From assembly GCA_963514005.1 (NCBI GenBank), contig OY740806.1, forward strand, positions 32,054,001 to 32,118,000: 64,000 bases of DNA, read 5' to 3'. The notes under the pieces are model-generated. The model was given only the letters and a program-made list of their open reading frames with translations. It ran no database searches and was not told the DNA's origin. A program made the translations under genes and the position numbers. Positions 5,504 to 60,800 of the stretch are shown one piece after another. The number at the start of each line of letters is the position of its first letter. Position 1 is the first letter of the stretch. The stretch comes from Raja brachyura. Taxonomy: Eukaryota.

Positions 5504-6182
5504 AAACCGAAGATAGACACAAACAGCTGGAGTACTTCAGCGGGCCAGGCAGCATCTCTGGTGACGTTTCGGGTCGAGCCCCTTCTTCTGACTGGTTAGG
5601 GATAAGGGAAACGAGAGATATAGACAGTGATGTGGAGAGATAACAAGATGTGGACTCCTACACATCGGCGAGACCAAACACAGACTGGGTGAACACCTTC
5701 GCTCAGCCCGCGTGAACCAACCTGATCTCCCAGTTGCTGGACACTTTAATTCTCCTTCCCATTCCTTCACAGACCTTTCTGTCCTCTGTCTCCTTCATTG
5801 TCAGAGTGAGGCTAAACGCAAATTGGAGGAACAGCATCTCATATTTCGCTTGGGCAGCTTACAGCCCAGTGGTATGAATATGAATTCTCTCACTTCGAGT
5901 AGCCCCGGCATTCCCTCTCTCTCTATCCCTCCCCCACCCAAATCGCACTAGCTTCCCATTTTCACCCTACAAACAGCTTACAATGGCCTGTTTCTTTTAT
6001 CATTATTACTTTTTTGCATACCTTTCATTCATTGTTCTTTATCTCTCCACATCACCGTCTATATCTCTTGTTTCCCTTATCCCGAACCAGTCTGAAACGT
6101 CTCGACCCGAAACGCCACCCATTCCTTCTGTCCAGAGATGCTGCCTGCTCCGTTGAATTACTCCAGCTTTTTGTATCTATCT
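5504..6182 (+). mobile_element. 5'-truncated Penelope-like element: inverted terminal arm, GIY-YIG endonuclease C-terminus, 3' terminal arm with decayed hammerhead
   Basis: 5504-5642 is the reverse complement of ~6040-6182. The middle encodes ...IGETK.RLG...NQPDLPVAGHFNSPSHSFTDLSVLCLLHCQSEAKRKLEEQHLIFRLGSLQPSGMN, typical of a PLE GIY-YIG domain. Confidence 0.85.
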
Positions 6183-6199
6183 ATGATAAACATGATATC

Positions 6200-57800: not shown

Positions 57801-60800
57801 GATGCAGACATCAATGCCCAGTCTGGTGGGGGAAAGGATAGGAGAGAGTATTAGGAGGGGGGGGTAGGAGAGTGATTTATTTTACCAGTTGTCCCCCTCT
57901 TTCCCCATCCCGTCAATGATGAGCAATGGATAGTGCTTCCAAAAAGAGTTATAAAGGGAAATGGGGGATAGCATTCAATTATTATTTCCAGTGTAAGTTG
58001 TTAAATTCTTCTCTCTGATACATTTTGTTGCCCAGCTCAGAGAGTTTAGTGACATGCAGTGTTTAGAGTTCACACTGATCATCAGTCACATATTCACACT
58101 AGTTCTATGTTATCCCACTTTCAAATCCACTCCCTATACATTTGGTCCAACCTACAGAGGCCAATGAACTTACAAACCCACAACGCTTTGGAATGCAAGA
58201 CTTTAGTTTGTCAAGTGTACCGTGAATTGTATAGTGAAAAGCTTAGGTTGCATGCTATCCAGTCAGCAGAAAGACAATACATGATTACAATCGAGCCATT
58301 TACAGTGTATAGATACATGATAAAGGAATAAAGTTTAGTGCAAAGTAAAGCCAGCAAAGTCCGATCAAGGATAGTCCAAGGGTCACCAAAGAGGTAGATA
58401 GTAGTGCAGCACTGCTCTCTGGTTGTGTTGGGATGATTCAGTTGCCTGATAACAGCTGGGAAGAAACTGTCCCTGAATCTGGAGGTGTGCGTTTTCACAC
58501 TTCTAAACCTTTGCCTGATGGGAGAGGGGAGAAGAGGGAGTGCCCAGGGTTCAACTCGTCCTTGATTATGCTGCTGGCCTTGCCGTGGAAACCGGAGCAA
58601 CTGGAAAAACCCACGCAGTCACAGGGAGAACATGCAAACTCCACACGAACAGCACCCGAGGTCAGGATTAATCCCGGGTCTCCAGCGTGGGAGACAGCAG
58701 CTCTACCACCTGCGCCACTGCCGCACTGTGGGGCTGTTTTGAAACACTTGATAATCGCAGCTGAACATAATATGGTACAAATCATAACCCTTGCAGCAAT
58801 AGATGCTATATTTATATACTGACCTTATTTAGTTCTCTTTACTTCCTCCACCTCACACACTAACTTCTCTATCCTTGGCTTTTTGACTGATCCAATAATA
58901 TTTAATATGTGTGAGGCAAAGGACCACATCTTTTGATTAATGTGTTGCAGCTTACCTGAATCAATGCTGCCAAACAGCTGCTTCTAATGATTCCGCTACT
59001 TCCATGTGATACATCTCTAGATTCATTTTTGTGTTTTTGCTCATTCTCTAACCTCCCCTGTCGGTCTTTCACAAGTATCGCTTTTGTTATTTGTACTTTT
59101 CACTCTGTCAGACTTTCTTAATTTCTCACCATCTTGCTCCATCGCAAACATTTTTGAGTTTGCGTTGAAAGTTCATCAATCTGATGTATTAATTGTTTCC
59201 CTGTTAATAGTTGTTGACTGATCCACTGACTCTTTTCAACACTTAGTTTTTAATTCAGTTTTCCAATATCTTGATATTTTAATGTATATAGTTTTGAGAA
59301 TTTTTCTTAATCTTTTAATCTAATATTGGTTGTTAATATTCCAATACAACAAACATTTGCAGTCATTTAGTATTGTTGACATTATTAAAAGGTCAAATTT
59401 GACAGCTACAAATATTGCTTAAAATGACATGAACATTGGTGAAAATAGTAGGTTTCTAAAGGAAGAGAGACGTGCAAGGTGGAATGATTCAAAGAGGAAT
59501 GATTCCAGACTTTAAGGGCCTTGGCAGTGAAAGGTTTGGCTGTCAGACATGGAGCGAGCGAAGTGACAAATCCACAAGATACTGGAATCGGATACCTGGA
59601 ATGATCTTCGTTGTTTGTCTATTACAGAAATTGTGCACAAAGATAATAATCATTAAAGAAGATAGGCACAAAATGCTGGAGTAACTCAGCGGGTCAGGCA
59701 ACAACTCTGGAGAAGGCGAATAGGTGACGTTTCGGGTCGAGACACTTCTTCAGACAGATCTTTGGTGTAATCCAGTATCTGCAGTTCCTTCTTACACATA
59801 ATAATCATTAACATTGATAATGATGTTTTCTGCAGGCTAAGTGGTACACAGATGTCTAAACCCCATGTTCACAATAAGTCCTATTGTACCTTTATCTGAG
59901 GAGAATGATATGCAAAAGAGTTTGCAAAATACTTGTACATGTTTATACAATATCATGCACAATTTTTAAAATACAAATGTAGCAAACTAAATTGGGCTTG
60001 AAATACTTTTTAATCTAAATCTTGGAATGTTATTTTGTATTTGGTGTGAGTCCTCATAACATAAATTTGTTATTCCATCAGATATAATGGAACAGAATAA
60101 CAGAACTAAAATCTGAAAGCACACATTTCATGTATTTTACAATTGATATTCACAAGAACTGCATGTTTGCTGCTAAATTGGATTTCTCTGTAATGGCGAT
60201 AACTGATGAGGGTATAGAAGCTGTTGATAGCAGCAAATTGCTAACTACTTTGGAATTCAGTGGCTATGCCAAGCCTCGGTGGTTCTTCTTATTGATTTAA
60301 CAGAAATGTCAGAGCAATCAAGTACTTAACTTTTGAACCAGGATATTAAAGCTCAGTAATCTTTGTTCATTTGTTAGAAAGCCTTGAACGTAATGTAGAT
60401 TACATGAGTTTGTTTTTTAAATAAGGTTAGAATTTGTCACTTTTTAGTTGTTTATTTATAACCTGTACTATTGTCATGTTTCATTATTCCTGATAACATC
60501 ATAATATTTAATTACCAAGTCGTTTTATTCAGTTTACCTTCAAATAATGCTAAAGACCTTCTAATTTTAAATGTGATTTTAGAGCAATACATCTAAAACA
60601 AATGTACAGGAACTAAAACTCATTAAATTATCATTTAATATCAGCATTTTTCATAACACTAACATTAGCAATTTTTGTTAAATATTCTCGCAACATTAAA
60701 TATATTGCGATGGAGCACAGAGCATAGAAGAATACTTAATAATCTACTATTTGTTTTGTACAATTAAGTCCGAACCCTGAATCCATGAATTCCAAAAGTA

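What the first reader, a model, noticed from the sequence alone, without database searches (positions are those of the whole stretch)
5504..59811. Family of tiny mobile insertions built on a minimal hammerhead-ribozyme core, with ~14-16 bp target-site duplications
Seen: a ~100-nt module occurs about 15 times on both strands. Its consensus core reads CUGAAGA-A-GGGU(CUCG)ACCC-GAAAC-GUC, i.e. the conserved hammerhead core, a 4-bp stem II with a YNMG tetraloop (UUCG variant at 6842-6869) and a loop-less palindromic stem III (ACGU). Seven stand-alone copies of 86-338 bp have their own AT-rich TSDs: 18230 (14 bp), 26073 (15-16), 35730 (9), 39174 (14), 41525 (15), 52618 (14), 59657 (14). Established: Penelope-like elements carry minimal hammerheads in their terminal repeats, and these work as dimers. 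Inference: these are independently inserted, non-coding, retrozyme/SINE-like units (or extreme PLE truncations) mobilised by a GIY-YIG Penelope. One copy per 4-5 kb here would make it a very abundant ribozyme-like motif if the density holds genome-wide. Caveats: stem I is only ~2 bp, and an extra A follows the CUGAAGA box.
Basis: partly seen in the sequence, partly recalled or inferred. Interest (0 to 1): 0.8.

Follow-up and report, generated by a model that had tools for sequence, protein, structure and literature searches.

The report
Run-off copies of Penelope transcript starts
These tiny inserts are the hammerhead-bearing end piece of a very active Penelope-like jumping gene, and about half of them appear to be short run-off copies that stop at one fixed point, probably the capped start of the element's RNA, which offers a genome-wide record of how this little-understood class of element copies itself.

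Summary
Observation confirmed. The module is the terminal repeat (pLTR end) of an active Penelope-like element with a Neptune-type linker: 1,204-aa RT + GIY-YIG frame, 3,971-bp tandem unit. The 28-nt core has 50,608 exact genome matches. Minimal hammerheads with the extra A, the optional tail, inverted 5' copies and TSDs are known PLE traits, and short copies share the autonomous consensus, so no separate SINE is needed. Lengths are not a smooth continuum, though: 42 of 77 young copies start within -6..+3 of the core and none at -59..-7. Genome-wide, junctions 2 nt before the core outnumber a control 6,574 to 128, with a G before the junction in 53 of 100 (control 21 of 100), as expected of a capped RNA start. 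The predicted cleavage site shows no excess (143 vs 168). Best reading: RT primes internally near the transcript's 5' end and runs off at the cap; both DNA ends are often primed (18 of 21 inverted pairs have one end of each type); template jumps make rare retrozyme-like tandems. Cleavage and transcription are untested. The scan noted the 5' clustering before in another genome.

The parts
5504..5645 (-). Inverted 5'-truncated pLTR piece of family B (end of 3' UTR, module, first bases of the tail) at the 5' side of the insertion 5504-6190
5631..5900 (+). GIY-YIG C-terminal coding fragment of family B PLE
   Evidence: tblastn with the full ORF, E 1e-28; translation
5900..6190 (+). 3' UTR plus module (6094-6182, core partly deleted) of the same insertion; no TSD found
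6777..7352 (-). 5'-truncated older family-A copy: GIY-YIG fragment 6963-7319, short UTR, module 6780-6869 with UUCG loop and intact core
7492..7620 (+). Decayed module with tail of an old PLE (coding remains at 6328-6661) that the 6777-7352 copy interrupts
   Evidence: interruption read from the sequence
11055..11102 (+). Old module fragment without core
18230..18433 (.). Head-to-head pair: minus copy from the -2 start (G before it) to the tail end, plus copy truncated and ending at the first 3' end; TSD 18216-18229 / 18434-18447 (13 of 14)
24047..24118 (+). Old module lacking most of the core
26073..26241 (.). Head-to-head family B pair, both cut inside stem II, plus copy with tail; TSD 26057-26072 / 26242-26257 (16)
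27674..27843 (.). Head-to-head family B pair joined just before the cores; no TSD found
28587..28764 (-). Module with tail and part of a UTR
35730..35815 (-). Simple family A copy starting at +5, ending at the first 3' end; TSD 35721-35729 / 35816-35824 (9)
36553..36643 (+). Older module, decayed
39174..39336 (+). Family B module 39241-39334 preceded by an inverted tail piece; TSD 39160-39173 / 39337-39350 (14)
40413..40604 (.). Head-to-head pair of the oldest family seen (CUGAUGA box, longer stems I and II)
41525..41622 (+). Simple family A run-off copy, intact core 41529-41556, starts at -1 after two non-element bases; TSD 41510-41524 / 41623-41637 (15)
43823..43916 (-). Older module at the 3' end of a PLE whose coding remains lie at 44389-44509
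52618..52955 (.). Head-to-head family A pair with UTR pieces; minus copy ends at the first 3' end, plus copy (intact core 52825-52852) carries the tail; TSD 52604-52617 / 52956-52969 (14)
59657..59797 (-). Module 59660-59753 starting at -1, preceded by an inverted tail piece; TSD 59643-59656 / 59798-59811 (14)
63138..63219 (-).

Best explanation
The module is the end of the pseudo-LTR of endonuclease-positive Penelope-like elements (several families; the youngest, A, is autonomous). In tandem or partial-tandem sources it is also the 5' end of the transcript. Numbering +1 = C3 of the hammerhead. Shown: copies end at two fixed 3' points (about +95 and +130) and about half begin at a fixed 5' point (about -2), often after a non-element G. 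Inferred: the capped RNA starts at A(-2); the RT/GIY-YIG protein nicks AT-rich DNA with about 15-nt stagger, primes internally at +95 or +130 as shown in vitro for the anole element, and runs off at the cap, leaving a 95- or 130-bp insert. Often both DNA ends are primed, one at each site, giving head-to-head pairs. Occasionally the finished cDNA jumps to another template position. The hammerhead is a passenger of these copies: probably a weak, dimer- or protein-dependent ribozyme in the parent, not needed to make them.
For: Full-length ORF with Pfam RVT_1 and GIY-YIG hits (both below curated cut-off) and a CX4CX2C linker; module about 230 nt after the stop and again before the next ORF. 77 family A copies: 36 start at -3..+1, 42 at -6..+3 (2 of them carry an older UTR), 0 at -59..-7, 18 at -60 or beyond, 17 at +4 or later. 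Genome-wide junctions 6,574 at -2 vs 128 at -7; G before the junction in 53 of 100 listed vs 21 of 100, Fisher p=4e-6. An extra G marks capped full-length L1 insertions (PMC11702581, passage). Contigs of four other runs show loose ends at -2/-3 and at both 3' ends; in one run the joints next to -2 carry the extra base. Of 20 module-into-ORF copies read (of 97), 10 begin at -3..+4, so ORF-containing templates begin there. TSD of 9 nt or more in 47 of 77, mode 15, control 28 of 1,526. 18 of 21 head-to-head pairs have one end of each type, p=5e-4. Short and long copies share the main haplotype, 48 of 61 and 53 of 57.
Against: No RNA evidence: all runs were contigs and none is shown to be RNA. 47 of 100 junctions at -2 lack the G, and some G's belong to the TSD. 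The 77 copies come mostly from the first 2 Mb of one contig. In the older family B the pile-up is more diffuse and partly due to other families' UTRs (16 of 34 at -4..+4; TSD in only 6 of 34). One variant is shared by 4 of 47 short and 0 of 53 long copies (p=0.045), which hints at a minor short-only source. How long copies arise is not explained; cap-G carry-over into long copies was not seen.
Confidence: 0.65

Rival explanations
1. Solo 130-nt copies are self-sufficient SINE-like units: an internal promoter lets them be transcribed and re-mobilised in trans.
For: Discrete ends. D. virilis Penelope has an internal TATA-less promoter with a downstream element (PMC2377424, passages), and the ACGT of stem III lies about 27-30 nt from the inferred start. 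One variant occurs only in short copies.
Against: No private consensus; 25 non-CpG changes in 47 short copies, 6 of them shared. Only 28% of short copies carry the tail. The anole protein needs RNA about 55 nt beyond its RT start (PMC11167929); solo copies lack the equivalent stretch (inference by analogy).
Confidence: 0.15
2. RT coming from the 3' pLTR stalls at the hammerhead or stem I boundary, so the pile-up is a structural truncation hot spot and not an RNA end.
For: The break coincides with the 5' edge of the motif; stem I starts at -1/0.
Against: G excess. Folding is unremarkable (z -1.35, -0.65, -0.10) and stem I is only 2 bp. A stall would be expected at the 3' foot of a structure; +29 shows no excess.
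Confidence: 0.12
3. The 5' end is made by RNA processing: hammerhead cleavage, or splicing at the AG just before the core.
For: Hammerhead consensus is conserved; a pyrimidine tract and AG precede the core, and a donor-like site overlaps the start codon; one locus holds the joined form.
Against: Junctions at the predicted cut: 143 vs 168 at a control position, p=0.17; 2 of 77 sampled copies at +28..30. The joined form occurs at 1 locus (2 hits). TSDs often abut the -2 start with no common upstream exon.
Confidence: 0.05

Closest known systems
Neptune-clade EN+ Penelope-like elements (Craig et al. 2021, PMC8557442, passages)
   Same: RT followed by C-terminal GIY-YIG with CX2-5CxxC linker, partial tandems forming pLTRs, adjacent inverted 5'-truncated copy, 30-40-bp tail at one end, hammerhead in the pLTR.
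   Different: Described as highly 5'-truncated; a dominant fixed 5' end with an extra G was not in the passages read. Clade was not tested by phylogeny, and Nematis shares the linker.
PLE minimal hammerheads (Cervera and de la Pena 2014, PMC4209133, parts 1-2 of 4)
   Same: Type I core, no loop 3, palindromic 15.2-16.2, extra nucleotide after A9, G10.1-C11.1 pair, mostly single motifs 'probably related to truncated PLEs'.
   Different: Helix II is 4 bp and helix I 2 bp here (7-8 and 4-5 bp in Schistosoma; 2-bp helix I in D. virilis). Counts there are about 4,000 (coelacanth) and 9,000 (Xenopus) against at least 50,608 here; cartilaginous fishes are not named in the parts read.
Anolis PAc (Poseidon) in vitro system (Frangieh et al. 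2024, PMC11167929, parts 1-2 of 4 and passages)
   Same: Two internal RT start sites bounding the tail, both DNA strands cut and extended, AT-rich targets, hammerhead not needed for insertion, no reads at the cleavage site.
   Different: Different clade; the hammerhead overlaps the ORF start there, while here the ATG lies at +164. The paper maps no transcript start and reports no run-off size class in the parts read.
Metazoan non-LTR retrozymes (PMC7229834, passages; bioRxiv 10.64898/2026.07.22.740005, parts 1 and 3 of 5 and passages)
   Same: Type I hammerhead, related to pLTRs, long TSDs, proposed PLE mobilisation.
   Different: Defined by head-to-tail tandem units and circular RNAs; here copies are solo or head-to-head, and tandem minis are rare.

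Membership tests
EN+ Penelope-like element | Single ORF with RT and C-terminal GIY-YIG | tested here: met
   1,204-aa frame; RVT_1 E 2e-4, GIY-YIG E 2e-3, both under the curated cut-off; YIDD and DKG motifs
EN+ Penelope-like element | Tandem or partial tandem forming pLTRs | tested here: met
   3,971-bp tandem in L083; partial tandems in L081, L082
EN+ Penelope-like element | Inverted 5' copy and 30-40-bp tail at one end | tested here: met
   35-nt tail; 18 of 21 pairs asymmetric
Neptune clade | CX2-5CxxC linker between RT and EN | tested here: met
   CX4CX2C at aa 1071
Neptune clade | RT phylogeny groups with Neptune rather than Nematis | not tested
   no named reference set was fetched
PLE minimal hammerhead | Conserved catalytic nucleotides, G10.1-C11.1, extra nucleotide after A9, palindromic stem III | tested here: met
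   12 family consensuses: core 0.977 mean identity vs 0.813 at +29..49 and 0.55 upstream, but 0.926 at +50..86
PLE minimal hammerhead | Covariation in stems I and II | tested here: inconclusive
   One A-U for G-C (oldest family, 3 copies), one U-G wobble, U-A/U-G at the first stem I pair; two consensuses break one stem II pair
PLE minimal hammerhead | Self-cleavage as dimer or with protein | not testable with these tools
   Computed active dimer -6.7 vs cofold minimum -19.7 kcal/mol; no genomic footprint
Non-LTR retrozyme | Head-to-tail tandem units each with a hammerhead | tested here: not met
   Not for the window copies or the bulk; 13 of 20 module-into-ORF loci are two-unit minis, of 97 such loci genome-wide
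Non-LTR retrozyme | Circular unit-length RNA | not testable with these tools
   only contigs were available
SINE-like non-autonomous family | Own master lineage with diagnostic sequence | tested here: not met
   Same consensus as the autonomous element; one minor shared variant
SINE-like non-autonomous family | Independent transcription of solo copies | not testable with these tools
   no raw RNA reads were offered

The most novel reading that the evidence does not exclude
Penelope-like reverse transcription normally begins by making a retrovirus-like 'strong-stop' cDNA from the capped 5' pLTR and must then jump templates to make long copies. This genome holds hundreds of thousands of aborted strong-stop products, and mis-jumps to about +200 create head-to-tail two-hammerhead minis, which are retrozymes caught at birth. 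The hammerhead core would double as start-site and downstream-promoter sequence, which would explain its 2-bp stem I.
Probability: 0.25. Interest if true: 0.8.

Novelty: new variant of a known kind. Interest (0 to 1): 0.5.

Why it matters
How PLEs make their pLTRs, tails and inverted ends, and what their hammerheads do, is open; one protein has been studied in vitro in the papers found. A young family with more than 70,000 near-identical ends and about 100 module-into-ORF loci gives a large natural read-out: a fixed, probably capped template start, asymmetric priming of both DNA ends, template jumps, and no trace of cleaved templates. Each point can be tested with an intact ORF from this genome. 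It also warns that counts of genomic hammerheads (about 190,000 intact cores extrapolated here, 110,000-310,000) can be by-products of abortive PLE copying and not functional ribozyme genes.

Tried and rejected
Rfam scan: no hammerhead hit; 43 weak matches, all below gathering score, on purine/pyrimidine tracts at 12364-12889 and the 52.7-kb inverted repeat. Cleavage footprint: none. Spliced origin: one locus only. Cap-G carried into long copies by strand transfer: mismatches at -3 in UTR-bearing copies were T 48, A 21, G 12 of 81, no G excess; this gives no support but does not exclude a seamless jump. Structure of the -2..+130 RNA: tail pairs back on +49..56 and, in family A, on the core, but z-scores are not significant and the pairing sequences do not covary. 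RNA expression: only contigs, 'RNA' mostly a guess, so nothing on transcription, starts or circles. The first GIY-YIG query was in the wrong frame and was redone. Lunse et al. 2017 is not held; known only through PMC6765202 (passages). The three-unit arrays and the joined-form locus were not read, so their structure is open. Not-in-print claim rests on searches; subscription papers, Repbase/Dfam and all supplements were not seen, and the supplements of PMC4209133 and PMC11167929 may bear on it.

Full report
Numbering: +1 is C3 of the CUGAAGA box; the three bases before it are A(-2) G(-1) T(0). E1 and E2 are the two 3' ends. The host looks like a skate-type cartilaginous fish (recalled resemblance of its repeats, from no call); G000 is 2.70 Gb.

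1. Observation. A profile from 9 window copies gives 27 hits, 24 at E<1e-4, with none below E=0.4 in five controls. The seven TSD-bounded inserts have the stated coordinates and sizes; six TSDs are exact (9-16 nt), one has a mismatch. Only 3 window copies keep an intact core and stem II. Genome-wide the 28-nt core has 50,608 exact matches, control 0; downstream 31-mers give 70,586 (family A) and 29,581 (family B). In 24 arbitrarily placed 10-kb stretches there are 109 hits, 73 with core, 17 intact; shuffles gave 0 intact. This extrapolates to about 0.8 million core-bearing and 0.19 million intact motifs.

2. What it is. At 5631-6190 and 6777-7352 the module directly follows GIY-YIG coding fragments. 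A 376-aa piece from L013 found 109 scored matches at 98-100% identity with open frames up to 1,204 aa. Twelve long loci show an ORF with RT, a CX4CX2C linker and GIY-YIG, then about 230 nt of UTR, the module and a 35-nt tail; L083 holds a 3,971-bp tandem in which the module also precedes the next ORF. Long copies end at the same E1 and E2 and have the same TSDs. Family B has the same layout. The module is therefore the pLTR end of PLEs with a Neptune-type linker (definition: PMC8557442). Window inserts 41525, 35730 and 52618 match the active element at 96-99%.

3. The hammerhead. Across 12 family consensuses (337 full modules) the catalytic positions are 0.977 conserved, +29..49 0.813, upstream 0.55, and +50..86 0.926, so the core stands only slightly above the downstream block. 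Covariation is thin. The extra A, G10.1-C11.1 and the palindrome are listed traits of PLE minimal hammerheads, which cleave weakly and only as dimers (PMC4209133); the anole one needs protein and is not needed for insertion (PMC11167929). The active dimer is far from the computed minimum. Junctions at the predicted cut are no commoner than at a control position, 143 vs 168. Cleaved, uncapped RNA might simply not be copied, so activity remains open.

4. The discrete short class. Of 77 family A copies (71 from the first 2 Mb of C1, 6 from elsewhere), 42 start at -6..+3, none at -59..-7, 18 further up, 17 at +4 or later; two of the 42 are long copies of an older family. Genome-wide there are 6,574 junctions at -2 and 128 at -7. 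The base before A(-2) is G 53, A 35, T 12 in the 100 listed, against G 21 of 100 in the control (tallied by hand; test). An extra G is the mark of a copied cap in full-length L1 insertions (PMC11702581). The sequence around A(-2) fits the initiator consensus YYANWYY (recalled) and CAGT is kept in 10 of 12 consensuses while upstream UTRs differ. D. virilis Penelope starts in its pLTR from an internal promoter (PMC2377424). Contigs of four public runs show loose ends at the same places, and one run shows the extra base in joints; they do not show transcription. In family B, 16 of 34 start at -4..+4, partly through other families' UTRs.

5. Mechanism. The anole protein primes at two internal sites that bound the tail and extends both DNA strands (PMC11167929). 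If the RNA starts at -2, priming at E1 or E2 of the 5' pLTR runs off after 95 or 130 nt, the sizes seen (inference). 18 of 21 head-to-head pairs have one E1 and one E2, 3 have two E1, none two E2 (14 of 16 without the module-into-ORF loci). Only 97 loci continue from the module into the ORF. Of 20 read, 10 begin at -3..+4, 5 run on past +289, 2 end in flank, and 13 stop in the ORF (9 at +199..210) and are followed by a second module copy; 5 of these start at -2 (4 after a G), 6 at -4..-6, 2 elsewhere. This is what a jump after run-off would leave. Short copies carry the autonomous haplotype (48 of 61; long 53 of 57) and few shared changes. Against: one variant in 4 of 47 short and 0 of 53 long copies; short copies are a little more diverged (0.972 vs 0.981-0.991); no cap-G in long copies.

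6. Comparison and novelty. The element, its hammerhead and its insertion shapes are known. It is not a retrozyme by the tandem criterion and not a separate SINE by sequence. A dominant fixed 5' end with an extra G, and jump-made tandem minis, were not found in eight paper searches of an open-access library; Repbase, Dfam, subscription papers and supplements were not seen. Two earlier notes of this scan on other genomes report the inverted-plus-tail pattern and the 5' clustering; I reached that reading before seeing them, and they are not independent support. The genome-wide counts, G excess, cleavage-site control and jump structures were tested here.

7. Verdict. Real, abundant, mostly explained by known PLE biology, with a quantifiable twist on mechanism. 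New variant of a known kind; interest 0.5.

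Noticed in passing
G000 C6:81429538-81429998, C22:20179215-20179903, C6:11726019-11726260, C36:17869739-17869966, C5:77626346-77626503: Module-into-ORF motif repeats at 214-bp (x3), 328-bp (x3), 209, 195 and 125-bp spacing: candidate newborn retrozyme-like arrays; not read.
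   Followed up: no
G000 C16:43672583-43672864: Only locus with the ORF-start donor-like site joined to the base before the core, in both orientations: rare spliced retrocopy or microhomology jump.
   Followed up: no
L189 8529-8781 (C1 about 1207500-1207800): Two modules head-to-head, each with G before the -2 start, enclosing about 175 nt of unrelated, LINE-RT-looking sequence inside a 15-bp TSD: possible capture of a foreign RNA by template jump.
   Followed up: partly
L083 UTR vs window 5900-6090 and 6870-6960: The active family looks mosaic: ORF and first UTR part like the older family at 6777-7352, later UTR and stem II like family B, +29 onward like the older family again.
   Followed up: partly
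L083 module +49..56 and tail: The tail repeats the motif before E1 and is complementary to +49..56 in all families with a tail; in family A its end can pair with the hammerhead core. Not significant by z-score.
   Followed up: partly
window 27294-27960: GC-rich repeat-like segment interrupted by the 27674-27843 pair; not identified.
   Followed up: no
window 28849-29734 and 57049-57684: Two related transposase-like DNA transposon remains (Tc1-like by recalled resemblance), 92-95% alike in inverted orientation.
   Followed up: no
window 28015-28170, 47151-47420, 50261-50545: LINE 3' end fragments (CR1-like by recalled resemblance).
   Followed up: no
window 16138-16206, 49935-50003, 58619-58687: Three copies of a SINE-like repeat.
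   Followed up: no
window 11800-13100: GC-rich island with a purine tract followed by a long pyrimidine tract that gives the false miRNA-family matches.
   Followed up: no
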